Assembly: GCA_040755255.1 (NCBI GenBank)
Contig: JBFLZZ010000004.1
Coordinates: 49,849 to 113,848, forward strand
Source: Thermodesulfobacteriota bacterium
Lineage (GTDB): Bacteria; Desulfobacterota; Desulfobulbia; Desulfobulbales; S012-135
Length of the DNA: 64,000 nt
Direction: 5' to 3'
The notes beneath the pieces were generated by a model. The model searched no databases. It was not told the DNA's origin and saw nothing but the letters and a program-made list of their open reading frames with translations. The translations under genes were made by a program, and so were the position numbers. Positions 17,155 through 24,025 of the stretch are shown one piece after another; within the stretch, counting starts at the first letter, position 1; every line of letters starts with the position of its first letter.

Positions 17155-17478
17155 TCAGGTAATGCCAAACTGCACGACATCCCTGGCCTCAGGGTCAATG
17201 TCGAGGCCGTTGATCTGCACCGTCGGGCTGCCTATATGGCGGTACTCTGCGGCTTCTTCCGGGCTGCGGACAATCACGTGAGTGAAATCGATAGCGATGC
17301 CCAGCTCCGCCGCCGTTTCTTTGACCAGGGCGATGGTGGACGGGGTGGCGGCGCATCGTTCCAAGGACACCACTCGCACCTGCATCATGGCTCCCTCCTG
17401 ACCGCGACGCTCCTGACCGCAGGCGGCAGCAATGCCCGCGACAAAGAATAACGCCACCATGAACAAATGCAATTTCAT
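17155..17478 (-). CDS. Small lipoprotein with a thioredoxin-fold/DUF2703-like core
   Basis: GAGG RBS. Signal and lipobox MKLHLFMVALFFVAGIAAAC. The motif ...SPEEAAEYRHIGSPTVQINGLDID resembles DUF2703/Thioredoxin_3 proteins. The family call is tentative. Confidence 0.5.
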   Translation of the reverse strand: MKLHLFMVALFFVAGIAAACGQERRGQEGAMMQVRVVSLERCAATPSTIALVKETAAELGIAIDFTHVIVRSPEEAAEYRHIGSPTVQINGLDIDPEARDVVQFGIT

Positions 17479-17552
17479 ATCTGATTACCTCGAATCTTCA
17501 GCCTATTTCCGGCGAGGAGGATATTCCCAAGCTGGACGCCTGCCGGCGGGCG

Positions 17553-17935
17553 TTCCTTTCTTTGCCGGCCAAAGAAGATGGATTCGTAAAAACTGGCAAC
17601 CCGCGTCATTGCGAGGAGCGGAGCGACGAAGCAATCCAGTATTTTCAATGAGTTACAAACTCATGGATTGCTTCGCTACGCTCGCAATGACCCTGGTTTT
17701 GGGTTATTACGACTCCATCAAAGAAAGGAACCAAAGAAAGGCCGGCCTTCACTTGCCCCCGCTGCGCGGGGGTTCCCCCCGTTCCTTGTCGCGGCCGGGC
17801 GCTGCGGAACTCGGCCCTGCGCGCCTCAGACAGCGGAGTCTCCGCCGCTGTCGCGGCTCCGCTTACCTGCTCGCGCTTTTTCCGGCGACTCCTGCGTCTC
17901 TCCGGCTGCGTGAAAATGGCATCCGAAAATGCATA
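17553..17935. repeat. Cluster of REP/BIME-like extragenic palindromes, including an about 157-nt imperfect long hairpin (17571-17727)
   Basis: Arms gtcattgcgaggagcggagcgacgaagcaatcc (17606-17638) and ggattgcttcgctacgctcgcaatgac (17665-17691) are inverted copies with an apex palindrome atgagttacaaactcat. Flanking arms gatggattcgtaaaaac and gattattacgactccatc also pair. GC-rich hairpins lie further on (cccccgctgcgcggggg; gacagcgg...ccgctgtc). Confidence 0.6.
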
Positions 17936-18092
17936 CTGAAGGAATCCAGGCTACCGAAATAGCAGCCTTGCAATTGGCTGAACTTCGACGGTAATCAGAA
18001 TTTCATAAGCGTGGGGTCACGGTTTGCCCTTTGCTGTCGTCACAGAAATTTTTTCCAGTTTCATCCTTCCATGCGCGCCAGATGCAAAGGGT

Positions 18093-19049
18093 TCAGGCTT
18101 CCCGGCTGACAAGACTTTCCAGTTCGGCCTTGACTCTCCTCACCTGCTCTGCCAGTTCCGGCCTCTCCCGCATCCGGTCCGACAACCGGCGGGCAGCCGA
18201 GCTGACGCTCGCAACGTCCCGGTTGACATGCCTGGCGACGTCGGAAAGGGTCGCGCAACCCAACTCCCGGGCAAGCCAGCCCACCACCGCACGCGCCTCG
18301 CAGGCGACCCTTTGCTGGGACACCGCCTTCAACCTCGCCTCGTCCACATGATAGGCGCGGCAGACCGCATCGGCGATCTCCTTGGCCGTCAAGCGAAGAG
18401 GTCTTCTGACATCGAAGTCCAATAGGCACTTTTGGGCAAAGTCGTCGTCACCGAGAATCCGCGGATCTTCTTCACCGCCGTGAAACTCGGGACGGTGCGC
18501 TTCCCCCAGCCTGTCGAGCACGAAGGCCCTGTACCCCGCCCGGGCCTTGCCCACCGATTTTCCGAACTGCCCGAGGACCCAGTCGGTGGTCAGCCAGGGG
18601 AGCGATTCCTTGCCAAGGTAGGCCGTGTGACCACTCCAGGGATATTCCCCGGGATCGTTGACCATTCCGGCCCGTACCGGATTGAGGTGAATATAGCGGA
18701 CCAATTCGAGCAGATAGCGATCACCATCCACCAGAACGGCTTTATAACGCCCCTGAAAGAGGTGGCCGGTTCTCTTTTCCCTCTGGTTGATCCAGCGGGT
18801 AAACCGAAAGGACAGATTCTGCATGCCCTGTGACAGGGGAATGTCGCCGGCCTGCAGGGCAAGATGGATATGGTTGGTCATCAGACAGAAGGCGTGAACC
18901 CGGTACCCGAACCGACTGGTTCCCTCCTGCAGCAGAAGGAAAAAACGGTGCCGATCGTCGTCTGCGAGAAAAACGGGTTGGCCGCCATTGCCGCGAAGGA
19001 TGACGTGGTAGAGACCGCCTGGAAGATGAATGCGTGGCTTGCGCGCCAT
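18093..19049 (-). CDS. REP-associated tyrosine (Y1, IS200/IS605-like) transposase with a C-terminal DnaA-domain-IV-like HTH
   Basis: MARKPRIHLPGGLYHVILRGNGGQPVF...HAFCLMTNHIHLALQ (HUH motif) ...GHLFQGRYKAVLV (catalytic Y region). The C-terminus ...ARAVVGWLARELGCATLSDVARHVNRDVASVSSAARRL resembles Bac_DnaA_C. An alternative upstream start at 19085 would overlap the RT gene. Confidence 0.85.
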   Translation of the reverse strand: MARKPRIHLPGGLYHVILRGNGGQPVFLADDDRHRFFLLLQEGTSRFGYRVHAFCLMTNHIHLALQAGDIPLSQGMQNLSFRFTRWINQREKRTGHLFQGRYKAVLVDGDRYLLELVRYIHLNPVRAGMVNDPGEYPWSGHTAYLGKESLPWLTTDWVLGQFGKSVGKARAGYRAFVLDRLGEAHRPEFHGGEEDPRILGDDDFAQKCLLDFDVRRPLRLTAKEIADAVCRAYHVDEARLKAVSQQRVACEARAVVGWLARELGCATLSDVARHVNRDVASVSSAARRLSDRMRERPELAEQVRRVKAELESLVSREA

Positions 19050-19065
19050 GGAGGGAATATACCTT

Positions 19066-20520
19066 TCACCCCGTCGACTTGTCAACTTGCAAGCCTGACC
19101 CTAACCGCACCACTTCGATTGAATCAAGAATAACCCTCCCAATATATGCACCGGCATTTCGCTTTAGCCCCCTGAACAGATCAAGAAGAGTTTTTTTGTC
19201 CTGATAGTCCTCGCAGCCAAGCAACTGCACGATTGCGATAGTCAAATATTCAGGCAAATATTCGCTAGTGATAATTTTTCGAGAAAAAACCTCCTGAATC
19301 TTTTTCTTTTCAGATGATTCAATTTTATCTTTGTATTTAATCAGGACGTCAACGATATATGGTGTAAATTGCGGGAAAAGATCTGCTAGTTCAGGAAGGA
19401 GTGAGAAATATATGTATTTTTCTGAACCTAAAACAGATTTGATAAACGATTTGATGTCGTCTGGTTCAGTTATTTTCTTTTCCTTGATGGAGTTAAATAG
19501 TTCTCTAGGGTCACTCTCTTTAAGTTTTGACAACTCAGCCAGATTGGGAGCGCGGAACCGAGTAGGAATCGTACCGCCATAACCTGCCATTAGACGAAAT
19601 TGTGGCTCTGGCTCTTCGGAAGATGTTTTTTCTTTTTTCTTATTTTCTGGAGGTGCACTTGTTTCTTTTGCTTCTTCTCCGGAGATAGGTTTGAGGCTGG
19701 AAACATCTTCAATTTTTGTCTTCCGCTGATTTATCGTTAAACCTTCAAGCCAGAGACGCTCAATCAGTTGAGTGAGCCAATAATGAGCGGTATGAGCATT
19801 AGGAGCGAACAACCTGTAGTCATCGACAAAGCGACAAAATTGCACCCCGATTGACAATAAATAATTGTCTACTTCCAAGAGTGCTGCTTCAGCCAGAATT
19901 CGGCTAGCATTTGAGCCGACTGGTAACGAATAAGAGTCGCGATTTGCCCAAAACAGAAGCAATTCGTTGAGCTGTTTTACTCTCGTTTTTTCAAACCCAT
20001 TCGACAGCAAAATGGATTCAAGTCTATGAATATTTAGCCGGTCATAAAAATTTGCAATGTCGCAAGTAACGAGGACCTTGGTGCTTTTCTGTCGAACTTT
20101 CTGTGAGACATGCTTTTTAAATGAAGTGATATTGTATTTAGTGTCGAAAATATACCCGTTTTGCGATTTGAACCGATATGAGAAAACAACCTTTGTGATT
20201 TTCTTAGGCCGAAGACTTTCCAGTTGATCTGCAAAAGTAAGAGATAGGGCAAGAAATTTGATTGTGTCTAAAGGATGGATAAGTGCACATCGCCTGAAGT
20301 CAAAAGGGCCTCCTTTAGGTAGCAAAACATGATCAATTTGAGCTATTTCTAGGGATTCTAGGGAGTTGCCCTTGATGCACTTGGTAACATTTTCTATTAC
20401 CTTCTTTTGAAATAGTTTGTTTCTGAGCAAACGAAGTTCGGTAGGGGCAGTGAAGATATCCGTTAGCCCTTCTTTCAACACATTTTGAACCGATAATCTT
20501 GTTGCTTTGTCTATTTCCAT
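19066..20520 (-). CDS. Free-standing reverse transcriptase (Abi/UG-like, 484 aa) with a helical C-terminal domain
   Basis: RT motifs occur in order: LPKGGPFDFRRCALIHPLD, CDIANFYDRL, SLPVGSNASRILAEAALLEVD, RFVDDYRLF (FVDD at 19819-19830), GLTINQRKTKI. A K/E/S/P linker follows, then about 170 aa of helical sequence. The gene is strikingly AT-rich relative to its flanks. Confidence 0.85.
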   Translation of the reverse strand: MEIDKATRLSVQNVLKEGLTDIFTAPTELRLLRNKLFQKKVIENVTKCIKGNSLESLEIAQIDHVLLPKGGPFDFRRCALIHPLDTIKFLALSLTFADQLESLRPKKITKVVFSYRFKSQNGYIFDTKYNITSFKKHVSQKVRQKSTKVLVTCDIANFYDRLNIHRLESILLSNGFEKTRVKQLNELLLFWANRDSYSLPVGSNASRILAEAALLEVDNYLLSIGVQFCRFVDDYRLFAPNAHTAHYWLTQLIERLWLEGLTINQRKTKIEDVSSLKPISGEEAKETSAPPENKKKEKTSSEEPEPQFRLMAGYGGTIPTRFRAPNLAELSKLKESDPRELFNSIKEKKITEPDDIKSFIKSVLGSEKYIYFSLLPELADLFPQFTPYIVDVLIKYKDKIESSEKKKIQEVFSRKIITSEYLPEYLTIAIVQLLGCEDYQDKKTLLDLFRGLKRNAGAYIGRVILDSIEVVRLGSGLQVDKSTG

Positions 20521-20545
20521 AATTTTCCAGGCGAACGACTAAAAT

Positions 20546-20581
20546 AAGCGGAAAATTGGCCGCAGGCCAAGTTTTCCGCTT
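20546..20581 (-). promoter_or_regulatory. Strong hairpin in the RT 5-prime leader (16 bp with 1 bulge)
   Basis: Minus strand reads AAGCGGAAAACTTGGCC-TGC-GGCCAATTTTCCGCTT and ends 25 nt upstream of the RT ATG. A weaker hairpin plus T-run (AGCCGtatcaGCGGTTTTATT) sits right after the upstream gene stop at 20657. Confidence 0.5.
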
Positions 20582-20656
20582 GATTGAATTGTTAGCGCTT
20601 TAATTATTAGTCTGTAGGTTTTCACTCTTCCTATTCAATAAAACCGCTGATACGGC

Positions 20657-21109
20657 TTAGTGACATGGGTACGCTTCTTCGAGCGCACGAATTACGGAAT
20701 ACTTCGCGTCAATATTTTCAACGCGAGAACGATTCCGAACGATGTATGACAACACGATATTTTTCAGATCAGTCTGAGAAAATATTTTTCCTGCTAAGCA
20801 AAAACCAGTTGGCCTACTGGGAGCATTTGACCTGTCGGGAGAATGTTCATTACTAGTGGCAACACCTACAATGTAGCCATTACAAAAACCTTGGTCATAC
20901 AGATTTTCCGACTGACATACACGCCCCAATAATTTTCCATCTGGTGGCATGTCTCCTTCCCCTGCGTGAGCAGCCTCGGTATAGAAAATACAGAGCAGAA
21001 AAACGCAGATTACCTGTAAAATGGGCGTAGACTTTATAGAAAGATGATGCTTTTTAGAAAAAAGTGGCACCGCAACAGCAAGCACAATGGCGGAAAGAAA
21101 GCTGCGCAT
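20657..21109 (-). CDS. Exported Rap1a/Tai4-family-like protein (T6SS amidase-immunity-like fold), orphan
   Basis: GGAGG RBS. Hydrophobic N-terminus ending AAHA. Core ...VCQSENLYDQGFCNGYIVGVA...TGFCLAGKIFSQTDLKNIVLSYIVRN...IRALEEAYPC matches my recollection of the Rap1a pattern (C..G.C.GYi.Gv...fCiP..vt..ql..vv..yl......a..al...fPC). Confidence 0.5.
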   Translation of the reverse strand: MRSFLSAIVLAVAVPLFSKKHHLSIKSTPILQVICVFLLCIFYTEAAHAGEGDMPPDGKLLGRVCQSENLYDQGFCNGYIVGVATSNEHSPDRSNAPSRPTGFCLAGKIFSQTDLKNIVLSYIVRNRSRVENIDAKYSVIRALEEAYPCH

Positions 21110-21114
21110 AACAT

Positions 21115-21330
21115 TTACCTCCGCATGTGGGAGGGACGAAACCCGATTGATGCAGCTGTATCACTTCGAACCATGGCAACCTGCCCACGGCAGTGGCTGC
21201 AAACAATGTATACTTCATTCCCGTCTCTAAGGAGAACCGGAGGCCTCTCGGTGGTGGACTGGCTACCGTCCGGTGTAATTACGTGTGTCGCGTAAAGAAC
21301 ACTGCCACAACCTGGACATTTGACATTCAT
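21115..21330 (-). CDS. Small zinc-ribbon protein (71 aa)
   Basis: AAGGAG RBS 8 nt upstream of the ATG. Paired CxxC motifs (CPGC ... CSHC). It lies 5 nt upstream of the next gene, and the start codon is about 15 nt after the predicted 3-prime end of the intron-like RNA. Confidence 0.5.
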   Translation of the reverse strand: MNVKCPGCGSVLYATHVITPDGSQSTTERPPVLLRDGNEVYIVCSHCRGQVAMVRSDTAASIGFRPSHMRR

Positions 21331-21344
21331 TAATTTGCTCCTTT

Positions 21345-22041
21345 GATCGACCGGGTAGGTCAGGAGCCTTGCGGCTCCCTTCCCCCCTCAGAACCGTACG
21401 TGACAGTTTCCCGTCATACGGCTCAAGCGCCTGCTAAGGTTCCCCTTGTTGGGGTTCCCGCAATTAATAATTGCTTCACGATAATGACAGACTGTCAGTA
21501 TAGCCGAAACTTAAGGGCGCACCAGCACAATGGCCGTCGTTTGCTTTCCCTTATGCTACTGATTCACTCCGTTTTCTCGTGAATAGGCACCTGCCAGAAG
21601 TCTGCCTCCTTGCGGAGCCGAGAATGTTGCACTCGGTATCCATGCCATTACAGCATGACATTCGCTTCTTAAGGCATCTCGACCCAGACCTCCAACAGCT
21701 TGCCTTGCGGTTAGCCTGCCCATTGGGCGAAGGACCTGGGGTACCACGTTCCACGTTTTTACCTTTACGGGCAACTTAGGCGGATCTTGAACGCCGGTGG
21801 AAATTGGGTCCCGTGCAGGCACGTTAGCGACCTGCAACCTCTCCGACACGCGTAAACACACGGAAACACGTCTTCGACCTGTTAATCCCCGTAGGTCTGG
21901 CCACAACTGACGGCGCGTGAAGATCTTTGCCTACTCTCGCCATATTGCCCCATCCTAGCCCTTAACCGGGTGGGATTCCCGGACGGGTTTCCGCCTCACG
22001 GCTTCCTCCCAATTCGGTACATTGTCAGGAGGGTTTCGCAC
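21345..22041 (-). ncRNA. ORF-less group II intron-like ribozyme (about 700 nt); both boundaries approximate
   Basis: Minus strand 21424->21391 reads GAGCCGTATGACGGGAAACTGTCACGTACGGTTC. This is a near-consensus domain V with the AGC triad, GAAA tetraloop and 2-nt bulge geometry. A domain VI-like GCAA-capped helix follows (21345-21388) with a bulged A. GTGCG occurs at 22041->22037 (alternative GTGCT at 22066). No RT or other ORF lies between. Confidence 0.65.
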
Positions 22042-22135
22042 CCCGTCATCAGCGCAACGGCAGCACGCCTCCCTAGGATACCGGCGGGGACACGCCGGGT
22101 GATCAGCCAGCACTTAACATGCTGTTATCACATAT

Positions 22136-22157
22136 AAAAACGCGACTTCGTGTCGCG
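22136..22157 (-). terminator. Intrinsic terminator-like hairpin (minus strand)
   Basis: Minus strand reads GTCGCG-ACGAA-CGCGAC... i.e. cgcgac/gtcgcg 6-bp GC stem (22141-22157) followed by TTTTT (22136-22140). Confidence 0.45.
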
Positions 22158-22505
22158 ACTAACGCTAGTGGTGAGGGGCCGGCCTAAAACAGGGGTCATG
22201 TGGGGGTCAGGCTTCCAAGTTGTCAAGTTTCTCAAGCTCAGCTTTGTGTGTTCTCACCGTGTCTACCCGTTTTGGCGCGGTCCTCGCCGTACTGCGTGTA
22301 CTGTCTCGTCGCAGCCCGCTTGCCTTCGCGTTCTACTGTTGATTCGGAATGGAAAAGGCCCCCTTCGCCCCGGCCGACGTCGCAGCGCAGTCACTCTCCT
22401 GAGCCTGCGGACACAAGATCTTCTCCTATTTGACCGGCGAGGACATCCTCGCCGTCATCATCACGCCCGAGGCCTGAATGTACTGAAAGAACTGTTCTTC
22501 ATCGC

Positions 22506-22557
22506 AAAAAAAGAGGGGTTTCCCTGTCTATCTTGCGAAAAACATGGGCAACCCCTC
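22506..22557 (-). terminator. Rho-independent terminator downstream of glnA
   Basis: Minus strand reads GAGGGGTTGCCC...GGGAAACCCCTC followed by TTTTTTT (22506-22512). Confidence 0.7.
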
Positions 22558-22696
22558 CTGATGGTTTCCGGTGGTGCGGCCATTTGACCGCGATCATCAA
22601 CTGATTTGTTCTTTATCCCGCCTCCATGAATCTGTCAATACCGATTGGCCCATACCTGCTCTAAGCACCTTGCCGCAGCAGACGCCTGATTCCTCC

Positions 22697-24025
22697 TCAG
22701 TACACCCCCAGATAGTTCTCCAGCTCCCATTCGGTGACCGCAGTCCGATACGAGTTCCACTCCGCCTCCTTGCCGGCGAGATAACGAGTGAAGATATGGT
22801 CCCCCAGGGCGGCGCGGCCGATGGGGTTCTTCTGGAACTCGTCCAGGGCCTCGTCCAGGGAGGTCGGCATGTTCTTGATCTTGCTGGTGCGCTTCTGCCG
22901 GTCGGTCATCCGGTAGATGTTGACGTCGGTGGGCGGCGGCGGCTCCAGCCGGCTGTCGATGCCGTCGAGGCCCGCCTTGAGCATGACGGCAAAGGCGAGG
23001 TAGGGGTTGCAGGCGGGATCCGGACAGCGGACTTCCACCCTGGTCCCCAGCCCGCGCGACGCCGGGATGCGCATCAGCGCGCTGCGGTTGGAGGCGGACC
23101 AGGCAACGTATACCGGCGCCTCGTAGCCGGGCACCAGCCGTTTGTAGGAGTTCACCAGCGGGTTGGTCACCGCCGCGAAGGCGCGGGCGTTCCTGGCGAT
23201 GCCGGCGATGTACTGGTAGGCGGTCTTCGACAGCTGCAGCCGATCTCTGATGTCGAAAAAGGCGTTGGTGCCGTCCAGGTTGAACAGCGACTGGTTGGTG
23301 TGCATGCCCGAACCGTTGATGCCGAACACCGGTTTGGGCATGAAGGTGGCGTGCAGGCCGTACTTCTTGGCGACCGTCTTCACCACCCACTTGAAGGTGA
23401 TGGTGTTGTCGGCGCACCTGAGGGCGTCGGCGTACTTGAAGTTGATCTCGTGCTGGCCGGCGGCGACCTCGTGGTGCGAGGCCTCGATTTCGTAGCCCAT
23501 CCGCTCCAGGGTCTCGATGATCTCGCGGCGGCAGTCGATGCCGTAGTCGTCCGGATCGACGCTGAAATAGCCGGCCTTGTCCTGGGTGCGGGTGGTGGGC
23601 GCGCCGCGTTCGTCGCGCTGGAAGAGGAAGAACTCGCACTCGGTGCCGACGTTCATGGTGAACCCCGCCTTCCGCGCCTCGGCCAGTACCCGTTGCAGGT
23701 TGACCCGCGGGCAGCCGGCAAAGGGGCTGCCGTCCACCTTGTAGACGTCGCAGATGATCCGGGCGGCGGCGCTGCCCTCCTTGTTGCGCCAGGGCAGGAT
23801 GGTGAAGGTGCCGTAATCGGGCTTCAGGTACATGTCCGACTCGTTGATCCGCACGAACCCCTCGATGGAGGAACCGTCGAACATGATCAGCCCGTCCAGC
23901 GCCTTTTCCAGCTGGCTGCGCGGGATGGCGACGTTCTTCATGTGGCCGAAGATGTCGACGAACTGCAGGCGGATGAAGTGGATCCTCTCCCGGTCGACGG
24001 TCTTGACGATCTCGTTTCTGGTCAT
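22697..24025 (-). CDS. glnA: Glutamine synthetase, type I
   Basis: 442 aa. Motifs [58 protein letters not shown], and [11 protein letters not shown] in place of an adenylylation loop. Confidence 0.95.

What the first reader, a model, noticed from the sequence alone, without database searches (positions are those of the whole stretch)
19066..20520. Free-standing, strongly AT-rich reverse transcriptase with a helical C-terminal domain (Abi/UG/DRT-like)
Seen:
- All RT motifs are present in order, with FVDD as the catalytic box.
- A K/E/S/P low-complexity linker follows, then about 170 aa of helix-prone repeats.
- I see no maturase X/En region and no obvious retron-style flanking repeats.
- G+C looks like about 35-40% by eye against more than 60% in the flanks (not computed).

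Established: bacterial RTs that are not in introns, retrons, DGRs or CRISPR loci and carry alpha-helical C-terminal domains mostly belong to the Abi/UG groups. Several of those are defence RTs (DRTs), some using a neighbouring ncRNA.

Inference: this is a horizontally acquired defence-type RT. I cannot assign the subtype by eye, so it could be an uncharacterised UG group.
Basis: partly seen in the sequence, partly recalled or inferred. Interest (0 to 1): 0.7.

Follow-up and report, generated by a model that had tools for sequence, protein, structure and literature searches.

The report
Truncated DRT8 (UG7) defence reverse transcriptase
This is a horizontally acquired copy of a known anti-phage reverse transcriptase family (UG7/DRT8) that has lost the last ~72 residues where a transposase unit abuts it, so it is most likely a dead remnant, not a new system.

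Summary
The ORF is real: 19066-20520 on the minus strand, 484 aa, FVDD box, K/E/S/P linker, helical C-terminus. Its G+C is 40% against 63-65% in the flanks.

It is not an uncharacterised group. It matches the PADLOC Drt8 (UG7) model at 2e-108 (362 bits); the next group scores 111 bits. A model of a 90%-identical relative folds like DRT6, DRT4, AbiK, AbiA and Abi-P2, the Class 1 UG/Abi enzymes.

- All full-length relatives are 524-584 aa.
- Homology stops at window 19113/19114.
- The last 15 codons and the stop come from the promoter region of the adjacent RAYT-like Y1 transposase unit.
- The missing ~72 aa form four confidently modelled helices with invariant residues, and they are nowhere in the window.
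- A 93%-identical metagenomic relative reads through the breakpoint intact.

In the related UG15, deleting 38 C-terminal residues abolishes immunity, so this copy is probably inactive.

An ORF-less group II intron lies 830 nt upstream, but the RT is not its intron-encoded protein. No conserved partner gene or ncRNA was found. Ordinary; low interest.

The parts
19066..20520 (-). RT ORF as it stands (484 aa). It is a chimeric reading frame: 469 DRT8 codons, then 15 foreign codons and the stop.
   Evidence: ORF; Drt8 2e-108; divergence after ...DSIE
19114..20520 (-). The part that is truly homologous to UG7/DRT8 genes (residues 1-469).
   Evidence: blastn to L001 covers 20526->19115 at 83% and to L003 covers 20537->19114 at 80%. 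tblastn with P0002 residues 1-469 covers 20520->19114. The X14 contig covers 19113-20538 at 93%.
19819..19830 (-). FVDD catalytic box (residues 231-234). V232, D233 and D234 are invariant in 73 relatives; F231 is nearly invariant.
19603..19701 (-). K/E/S/P-rich disordered linker (about residues 274-306).
   Evidence: composition; pLDDT below 50 over 280-318 in the model of P0002
19114..19602 (-). What remains of the C-terminal alpha-repeat domain (residues about 307-469). It keeps 9 of the 13 modelled helices.
   Evidence: 13 helices between residues 327 and 529; helices 474-482, 489-502, 505-518 and 523-529 lie beyond the breakpoint
19066..19113 (-). Foreign tail VVRLGSGLQVDKSTG plus the stop codon, read out of the upstream region of the RAYT unit.
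19056..19112 (-). Left end of the RAYT-like unit. It holds the conserved motif GGGTCAGGCTTgCAAGTTGACAAGT (19077-19101) and a promoter-like site, TTGACA-18-TATATT.
   Evidence: promoter-like site, 11/12; the motif is conserved about 50 nt upstream of RAYT homologues in 13 loci. X1 and X5 contigs are 99-100% identical over 19014-19112 and diverge at 19112.
18093..19049 (-). RAYT-like Y1 transposase gene with a DnaA-C-type HTH (318 aa counted from MARKPRIH).
   Evidence: Y1_Tnp 4.4e-12, Bac_DnaA_C 3.7e-09; REP_Tyr_transpos 76 bits against a cut-off of 80; 77% identical in Geobacteraceae MAGs
22191..22228 (+). Inverted second copy of the RAYT-upstream motif. Together with 19077-19114 it brackets the 3076-nt low-GC segment.
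   Evidence: I2: 38 nt, 79% complementary; 2 copies in the window, 0 expected by chance
20531..20596 (-). Strong hairpin followed by a T-rich tail, just upstream of the RT ATG. Homology to relatives' RT loci begins only 6-17 nt before the ATG.
   Evidence: I4; (the hairpin sits in several unrelated contigs of run X2)
20657..21109 (-). Rap1a-like exported protein (150 aa). It is the upstream neighbour on the same strand and is not a recurrent DRT8 partner.
   Evidence: PF18602 8e-12; no homologue other than itself; relatives have other neighbours
21115..21330 (-). Small ORF (71 aa), possibly a zinc ribbon (only sub-threshold Zn-ribbon matches).
21350..22099 (-). Group II intron RNA with no intron-encoded protein: D1 at 21958-22099 and D5-D6 at 21350-21426.
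   Evidence: RF02012 87 bits, RF00029 68.5 bits; no RT remnant in the ORFs between them

Best explanation
The ORF is a 3'-truncated copy of a UG7 (DRT type 8) reverse transcriptase, a Class 1 UG/Abi enzyme built as RT core, disordered linker and alpha-repeat domain. It arrived by horizontal transfer inside a ~3.1-kb low-GC mosaic lodged between glnA and a RAYT-like Y1 transposase unit in a Geobacteraceae-like genome.

Shown here: the family assignment; the breakpoint at 19113/19114, which coincides with the left end of the RAYT unit; the loss of about 72 C-terminal residues (four helices carrying invariant residues); and the absence of native upstream sequence, of a conserved partner gene and of a conserved ncRNA.

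Inferred: the truncation arose by a transposase-end-associated adjacent deletion or rearrangement, because the missing piece is not on the far side of the unit.

Inferred from kin: an intact DRT8 most likely works like its structural relatives DRT4, DRT6, AbiK, AbiA and Abi-P2. Those are oligomers that make tyrosine-primed, template-independent ssDNA and cause abortive infection. For DRT8 itself only the phenotype is published. Invariant Y115 and Y314 would be candidate priming residues.

Inferred: this copy is inactive, because the alpha-repeat domain forms the oligomer interface in DRT4 and a 38-aa C-terminal deletion kills UG15.
For: Family:
- PADLOC Drt8 scores 2e-108 (361.8 bits); the next model, RT_UG20, scores 110.9 bits.
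- Full-length relatives score 405-439 bits and reach profile positions 480-490 of 493. The window copy stops at position 432.
- The AF2 model of the 90%-identical P0002 has pLDDT 83.4 and pTM 0.82.
- Its best PDB folds are DRT6, DRT4/UG15, AbiK, AbiA and Abi-P2. The profile search of PDB sequences agrees.

Truncation:
- 738 homologues were found. Nearly all of the 120 listed are 524-584 aa (the few shorter ones appear to be fragments), and the full-length ones cover about 97-99% of the query.
- The alignment diverges after ...DSIE, and relatives continue with invariant R474, W490, E491, I495, E507 and F524.
- DNA homology ends at 19114/19115.
- A 93%-identical X14 contig continues across 19113 and encodes ...EELVSRNDVLE.
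- Contigs matching the RAYT side diverge at 19112.
- The C-terminal 72 aa are absent from the whole window.
- A 151-nt X2 unitig spans the junction with 0 differences.

Context:
- G+C is 0.402 against 0.63-0.65 in the flanks.
- No flanking sequence is conserved among relatives' loci, and dN/dS is 0.043.
- Neighbours vary: Old nuclease, an unknown 182/246-aa protein, IS91, or none.

Literature:
- UG7 is DRT8, protects against T5 and needs its RT catalytic residues. One variant has a PD-(D/E)XK partner and the other stands alone. A 38-aa deletion of UG15 abolishes immunity (PMC9226505).
- DRT4 and DRT6 are oligomeric (DRT4 a hexamer) and Tyr-primed, and they synthesise DNA without a template. 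Alpha-repeat helices form the trimer interface (PMC12783706).
- The mechanism of DRT8 is not established (PMC13213688).
Against: - The 469 retained codons have no internal stop or frameshift and keep every invariant residue up to the breakpoint, so the truncation may be recent. A shortened protein could keep some polymerase activity.
- Loss of function is inferred from another group (UG15) and was not tested for DRT8.
- The whole genome could not be searched because the genome search was shut. An intact second copy or a separately encoded C-terminal piece elsewhere is therefore not excluded.
- The X2 unitig that spans the junction has depth 2 and may come from the sample the window was assembled from.
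- How the deletion happened is inference; no empty site was found.
Confidence: 0.8

Rival explanations
1. This is an intact, working stand-alone defence RT, possibly of an uncharacterised UG group.
For: The frame is open for 484 aa with all RT motifs and FVDD. The gene is foreign by composition. The UG7 variant 2 is known to stand alone (PMC9226505).
Against: The group is not new: Drt8 scores 362 bits against 111 for the next model. The gene is not intact: it stops at profile position 432 of 493, whereas relatives reach 480-490. The last 15 residues come from the RAYT upstream region. Four confidently modelled helices with invariant residues are lost. No native upstream sequence and no promoter-like site were found, and a terminator-like hairpin abuts the ATG.
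Confidence: 0.1
2. The truncation is an assembly chimera, and the real genome carries a full-length RT.
For: The window appears to be a metagenome-assembled contig. There is a sharp G+C step at the junction. The junction lies at a repeated motif where assemblers can mis-join.
Against: An independently built Logan unitig in run X2 covers 19069-19219 with 0 differences. Both partners' homologies end within 1-2 nt of each other, as expected of a true recombination joint. No RT 3' end exists anywhere in the 64-kb window.
Confidence: 0.06
3. The RT belongs to the neighbouring group II intron, as a displaced intron-encoded protein, or to a retron or DGR.
For: Group II intron D1 and D5-D6 lie on the same strand 830-1580 nt upstream. 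A relative's locus, L006, also has an intron D1 about 210 nt from its RT.
Against: The RT lies outside the intron, beyond D6 and two other ORFs. TIGR04416 scores 44 bits against a cut-off of 300, and retron St85 RT scores 36 against 235. No maturase domain was found. Group II and retron RTs match the model only over the RT core. No retron or DGR RNA was found in Rfam. Three of the four distinct relatives' loci have no intron.
Confidence: 0.01

Closest known systems
UG7 / DRT type 8 (Mestre et al. 2022, NAR, PMC9226505)
   Same: It is the best HMM match by a wide margin. The architecture is the same: RT core with a hydrophobic-xDD box, a linker and a C-terminal alpha-repeat domain. Like the stand-alone variant 2, it has no PD-(D/E)XK neighbour. 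Close relatives sit in defence or mobile-element contexts, for example next to an Old nuclease and toxin-antitoxin pairs.
   Different: It lacks about 72 C-terminal residues and ends in 15 foreign residues. Native upstream sequence is absent. The host is a 63% G+C Geobacteraceae-like genome and the gene is 40% G+C.
DRT4 (UG15) and DRT6 (UG12), Class 1 UG/Abi RTs with solved structures (9vdo, 9vdv, 9l9s, 9wy8; PMC12783706)
   Same: These are the best structural matches to the model of the full-length relative (Foldseek E 1.7e-10 to 1.3e-09, TM-score on the query up to 0.58). They are single-gene systems with an RT plus an alpha-repeat domain.
   Different: Sequence identity is only 12-15%. They are different UG groups (Drt4 77 bits and Drt6 65 bits against Drt8 362 bits). 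Neither the priming tyrosine nor the product of DRT8 is known.
AbiK, AbiA and Abi-P2 abortive-infection polymerases (7r06, 8oz7, 7r08)
   Same: The overall Class 1 fold is the same, and they serve as the mechanistic template: protein-primed, template-independent ssDNA synthesis by oligomers.
   Different: They are distant in sequence (AbiP2 model 52.6 bits). They belong to other hosts and mobile elements.
Group II intron-encoded RT/maturases
   Same: They share the RT palm and fingers core, and an intron RNA happens to lie nearby.
   Different: There is no X/maturase or En domain, the gene is outside domain IV, and it scores 44 bits against a cut-off of 300 for the family model.

Membership tests
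UG7 / DRT8 | The best match, clearly separated from other groups, is the group's own HMM. | tested here: met
   PADLOC Drt8 scores 2e-108 (361.8 bits) and the next model, RT_UG20, scores 110.9 bits. Relatives score 405-439 bits.
UG7 / DRT8 | RT domain with an intact catalytic xxDD box. | tested here: met
   RVT_1 matches at 2.9e-11. FVDD is at 231-234; V232, D233 and D234 are invariant in 73 relatives and F231 nearly so.
UG7 / DRT8 | A complete C-terminal alpha-repeat domain, the Class 1 hallmark that is required for immunity in UG15. | tested here: not met
   The profile is covered only to position 432 of 493, against 480-490 in relatives. Four of 13 helices and the invariant R474, W490, E491, I495, E507 and F524 are missing. 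The copy is therefore a truncated member by descent, not a complete one.
UG7 / DRT8 | A PD-(D/E)XK nuclease partner (variant 1 only). | tested here: not met
   No such neighbour is present. The upstream genes are Rap1a-like and a possible zinc ribbon. The closest relatives also lack it. This fits the stand-alone variant 2.
UG7 / DRT8 | An anti-phage phenotype that depends on the RT active site. | not testable with these tools
   This is known only for another member of the family (PMC9226505).
Class 1 UG/Abi RTs (AbiK, AbiA, Abi-P2, DRT4, DRT6) | The fold is an RT core followed by a helical HEAT-like repeat domain. | tested here: met
   The model of the 90%-identical full-length relative has DRT6, DRT4/UG15, AbiK, AbiA and Abi-P2 as its top PDB folds, all at probability 1.00.
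Class 1 UG/Abi RTs (AbiK, AbiA, Abi-P2, DRT4, DRT6) | Protein-primed, template-independent DNA synthesis by an oligomer. | not testable with these tools
   This is inferred from kin (PMC12783706). The invariant Y115 and Y314 are only candidate priming residues.
Class 2 UG/Abi (DRT2, DRT9) and DRT3-type ncRNA-dependent systems | A conserved structured ncRNA next to the RT. | tested here: not met
   No sequence is conserved in the 500 nt upstream or the 400 nt downstream among 4-5 loci. No Rfam family lies beside the RT. Drt3a scores only 50 bits.
Group II intron-encoded protein | An RT with a maturase (X) domain, encoded in intron domain IV. | tested here: not met
   TIGR04416 scores 44 bits against a cut-off of 300. 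The gene starts 830 nt beyond D6, and two ORFs lie in between.
Retron RT | A retron-type RT with an adjacent msr/msd RNA. | tested here: not met
   retron_St85_RT scores 36 bits against a cut-off of 235. No retron RNA family was found in Rfam.

The most novel reading that the evidence does not exclude
The 3076-nt low-GC segment may be a cargo unit moved or captured by the RAYT-type Y1 transposase. It is bracketed by inverted copies of the RAYT-upstream motif (19077-19114 and 22191-22228) and carries the intron, two small genes and the RT. That would make it a REPIN-like element with passenger genes. Alternatively, the shortened DRT8 with its new 15-residue tail may still be an active polymerase.
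Probability: 0.07. Interest if true: 0.5.

Novelty: new member of a known kind. Interest (0 to 1): 0.2.

Why it matters
It matters little in itself. The locus is a decayed copy of a family whose defence role is already published.

Its modest value is threefold:
- It extends UG7/DRT8 to Geobacteraceae-like genomes. The close full-length relatives found here (P0002, P0003 and an X14 contig) could serve as study material for DRT8, whose mechanism is still unknown.
- It is a clean example of a defence gene cut exactly at the end of a RAYT-type transposase unit.
- The alignment gives invariant residues (Y115, Y314 and the C-terminal R474, W490, E491) that can be tested when someone works out how DRT8 functions.

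Tried and rejected
- **Empty-site search.** I fetched 79 loci that encode relatives of the RAYT protein. None is syntenic with glnA, the HD-GYP gene or the other flank genes, so the ancestral arrangement stays unknown.
- **Relatives' metagenomic contigs.** X1 and X5 contigs leave the RAYT end at 19112 into unrelated DNA, not into the glnA side.
- **Recurrent partner.** The Rap1a-like protein has no word-sharing homologue except itself. The upstream proteins of L003-L005 give no PADLOC or significant Pfam hit, only a weak HepT-like match at 0.024.
- **Own contig look-up.** The window's own RT is not on record in the contig index.
- **Conserved ncRNA.** No flank is conserved among relatives' loci.
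- **Expression.** No run listed as RNA holds the gene.
- **Whole genome.** A search for a second copy or the lost 3' end was not possible because the genome search and the fetch from genomes were shut (notice).
- **Priming tyrosine.** Mapping it from DRT4 or Abi-P2 failed, because the profile alignments do not reach those residues.
- **Intron-encoded protein.** Rejected on model scores and on position.
- **Intron RT remnant.** None is present in the ORFs between D1 and D5.

Full report
**1.

The minus strand carries an ORF at 19066-20520 that encodes 484 aa. Pfam RVT_1 matches above its cut-off at 2.9e-11. Residues 274-310 are rich in K, E, S and P. An all-helical region follows. G+C of the ORF is 0.402, against 0.632 and 0.650 in the flanks. 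No maturase or endonuclease domain is detectable.

**2. The family is known**

- Against PADLOC the protein matches Drt8 at 2e-108 (361.8 bits). The next model, RT_UG20, scores 110.9 bits, and Drt4, Drt5, Drt6 and AbiP2 score 50-80 bits.
- Drt8 is UG7. Mestre et al. 2022 (PMC9226505) showed that a UG7 system protects E. coli against T5 and needs the RT catalytic residues.
- That paper describes two variants. One has a PD-(D/E)XK nuclease partner that is also required. The other stands alone.
- UG7 is treated there among the Class 1 UG/Abi systems, which have an RT fused to an alpha-repeat domain.
- A 2026 overview still lists the mechanism of DRT8 as not established (PMC13213688).
- NCBIfam has no DRT8 model, and none of its DRT equivalogs reaches its cut-off.

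**3. Structure**

I modelled the closest full-length relative, P0002 (541 aa, 90% identical), from a 73-sequence alignment. The model has pLDDT 83.4 and pTM 0.82. It shows three parts:
- an RT core up to about residue 272;
- a disordered linker at 280-318;
- thirteen helices between residues 327 and 529.

Foldseek against the PDB ranks these first, all at probability 1.00: DRT6 (9wy8, TM-score on the query 0.58), DRT4/UG15 (9vdv, 9vdo, 9l9s), AbiK (7r06), AbiA (8oz7) and Abi-P2 (7r08). Group II and retron RTs match only the RT core. A profile search of PDB sequences agrees.

**4. The gene is truncated**

- 738 homologues were found. Nearly all of the 120 listed are 524-584 aa (the few shorter ones appear to be fragments), and the full-length ones cover about 97-99% of the query.
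- In the alignment the window protein follows its relatives up to ...GRVILDSIE, about residue 469. It then reads VVRLGSGLQVDKSTG-stop.
- The relatives continue for about 72 residues that contain the invariant R474, W490, E491, I495, E507 and F524.
- As a control, full-length relatives reach positions 480-490 of the 493-position Drt8 profile. The window copy stops at 432.
- At the DNA level, homology to the loci of P0002 (83%) and P0003 (80%) runs from 6-17 nt upstream of the ATG to 19115/19114 and stops dead.
- A 3.8-kb contig from an activated-sludge metagenome (X14, 93% identical over 19113-20538) continues past the breakpoint. Read in the RT frame, the continuation gives ...EELVSRNDVLE, as in intact genes.
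- The missing C-terminus is nowhere else in the 64-kb window.
- The lost part corresponds to the last four modelled helices (474-482, 489-502, 505-518, 523-529), all with pLDDT around 90-95.

**5. What sits at the breakpoint**

- Directly after 19113 comes the upstream region of a RAYT-like gene (18093-19049, Y1_Tnp plus a DnaA-C HTH).
- The region holds a 25-nt motif, GGGTCAGGCTTGCAAGTTGACAAGT. The motif contains the -35 box of the only promoter-like site in 17300-22800, TTGACA-18-TATATT.
- The same motif lies about 50 nt upstream of RAYT homologues in 13 Geobacteraceae and Desulfuromonadales loci. Conservation among those loci begins at the motif.
- Metagenomic contigs that are 99-100% identical to 19014-19112 leave the window sequence at 19112 and run into unrelated DNA (X1 and X5).
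- The RT homology and the RAYT-unit homology therefore end within 1-2 nt of each other. That is a true recombination joint at the end of a mobile unit.
- Because the remaining RT piece is not on the far side of the unit, a simple insertion is excluded. I infer an end-associated adjacent deletion or rearrangement.
- A Logan unitig in groundwater run X2 spans 19069-19219 with no difference. This argues against an assembly chimera, although X2 may be the source sample.

**6. Surroundings**

- An inverted copy of the RAYT-upstream motif lies at 22191-22228. The low-GC segment of 3076 nt (G+C 0.455) is therefore bracketed by inverted motif copies.
- Read on the minus strand, the segment holds these features in order:
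  - a small terminator-like hairpin (22141-22157);
  - a group II intron RNA with no intron-encoded protein (RF02012 D1 at 21958-22099, 87 bits; RF00029 D5-D6 at 21350-21426, 68.5 bits);
  - a 71-aa ORF, possibly a zinc ribbon;
  - a 150-aa Rap1a-like exported protein (PF18602 8e-12);
  - a strong hairpin with a T-rich tail;
  - the RT.
- None of these accompanies the RT in its relatives. P0002 follows an Old-family nuclease (310 bits to the PADLOC Old model). P0003 follows an unknown 182/246-aa protein. P0011 follows an IS91 transposase. The Syntrophobacter fumaroxidans copy has no adjacent partner gene.
- The 500 nt upstream and 400 nt downstream of the RT share no sequence among these loci. 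There is thus no sign of a conserved ncRNA, and the gene travels alone. This fits the stand-alone UG7 variant.
- The Rap1a-like protein has no detectable close homologue.

**7. The intron does not rescue the refutation clause**

Intron RNA domains are nearby, but the following points rule that out:
- The RT lies outside the intron, 830 nt beyond D6, with two ORFs in between.
- It scores 44 bits against a cut-off of 300 for the group II RT/maturase model, and 36 against 235 for a retron RT model.
- It belongs to UG7 by a wide margin.
- One relative's locus (L006) also has an intron D1 about 210 nt from its RT. The other three distinct loci have none. I read this as introns and defence genes sharing mobile, terminator-rich DNA.

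**8. How it most likely works**

For intact family members the mechanism is inferred from structural kin. DRT4 is a hexamer and DRT6 is also oligomeric. Both make tyrosine-primed, template-independent ssDNA. That DNA becomes toxic when a phage DNA-binding protein shields its 3' end. AbiK, AbiA and Abi-P2 make similar products. In DRT4, alpha-repeat helices form the trimer interface (PMC12783706). In the DRT8 alignment Y115 (in SYRF) and Y314 (in GYGG, just after the linker) are invariant. They are candidate priming residues, but this is speculation.

For this copy the following points suggest an inactive remnant:
- four alpha-repeat helices are lost;
- a 38-aa C-terminal deletion abolishes immunity in UG15;
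- the native upstream sequence is missing;
- a terminator-like hairpin abuts the ATG.

The low dN/dS of 0.043 against P0002 reflects selection before the break. The frame has no other lesion, so the event may be recent.

**9. Verdict**

This is a known kind, UG7/DRT8. The window holds a new but truncated member in a Geobacteraceae-like host. Its hope of an uncharacterised group is not supported, and the gene is probably non-functional. Interest is low.

Noticed in passing
window 21350-22157 (-): A group II intron RNA with no intron-encoded protein. Rfam finds D1 at 87 bits and D5-D6 at 68.5 bits, with only about 530 nt between them and no RT remnant. It starts just after a small terminator-like hairpin (22141-22157), as class C introns do. 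Related intron pieces next to the same hairpin occur in runs X1 and X5.
   Followed up: partly
window 19077-19114 and 22191-22228: A 38-nt inverted repeat whose core is the conserved motif upstream of the RAYT gene. It brackets exactly the 3076-nt low-GC segment. In other loci the motif is often preceded by short tandem repeats ending in GGGGTCA. In L014 an inverted copy sits at the 3' end of the RAYT gene.
   Followed up: partly
window 17577-17719: A REPIN-like inverted doublet (gtcattgcgagcg...gcgaagcaatcc) lies downstream of the RAYT gene. Its 36-nt core (17604-17639) is extremely abundant and sits in many different contexts in the metagenome runs, with summed depth up to about 3000 in X1.
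   Followed up: no
window 20545-20594: The strong hairpin in front of the RT ATG occurs in at least five unrelated contigs of groundwater run X2. It appears to be a dispersed palindromic element, not an RT-specific leader.
   Followed up: no
window 20657-21330 (-): A possible zinc-ribbon ORF (71 aa) and an exported Rap1a-like protein (150 aa, PF18602 8e-12) sit here with no T6SS gene nearby. The Rap1a-like protein has no word-sharing homologue among 5.8 billion proteins except itself.
   Followed up: partly
L006 7835-8087 and 13300-13374: In the 72%-identical relative's genome a group II intron D1 lies about 210 nt downstream of the DRT8 stop codon. The D5-D6 match is 5.2 kb further on, with acetyltransferase and DDE transposase genes in between. 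This may be a disrupted intron or two separate fragments.
   Followed up: no
L003 2566-3114, L004 6642-7382, L005 1307-2047: The 88%-identical RT relative is preceded by a conserved unknown protein of 182/246 aa that carries an R-x4-H motif (FRDRAVH) and a weak HepT-like hit (0.024). It may be a HEPN-type partner. Larger proteins further upstream have weak Ntox43 hits.
   Followed up: partly
L007 5021-6001 (Syntrophobacter fumaroxidans CP000478): About 980 nt with no called gene lie upstream of the 58%-identical DRT8 homologue. This stretch was not examined for RNA structure.
   Followed up: no
L001 8186-9919: The closest full-length relative of the RT sits 82 nt downstream of an Old-family ATPase-TOPRIM nuclease (PADLOC Old 8.5e-93) and near a VapBC pair. 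This is a defence-island context.
   Followed up: partly
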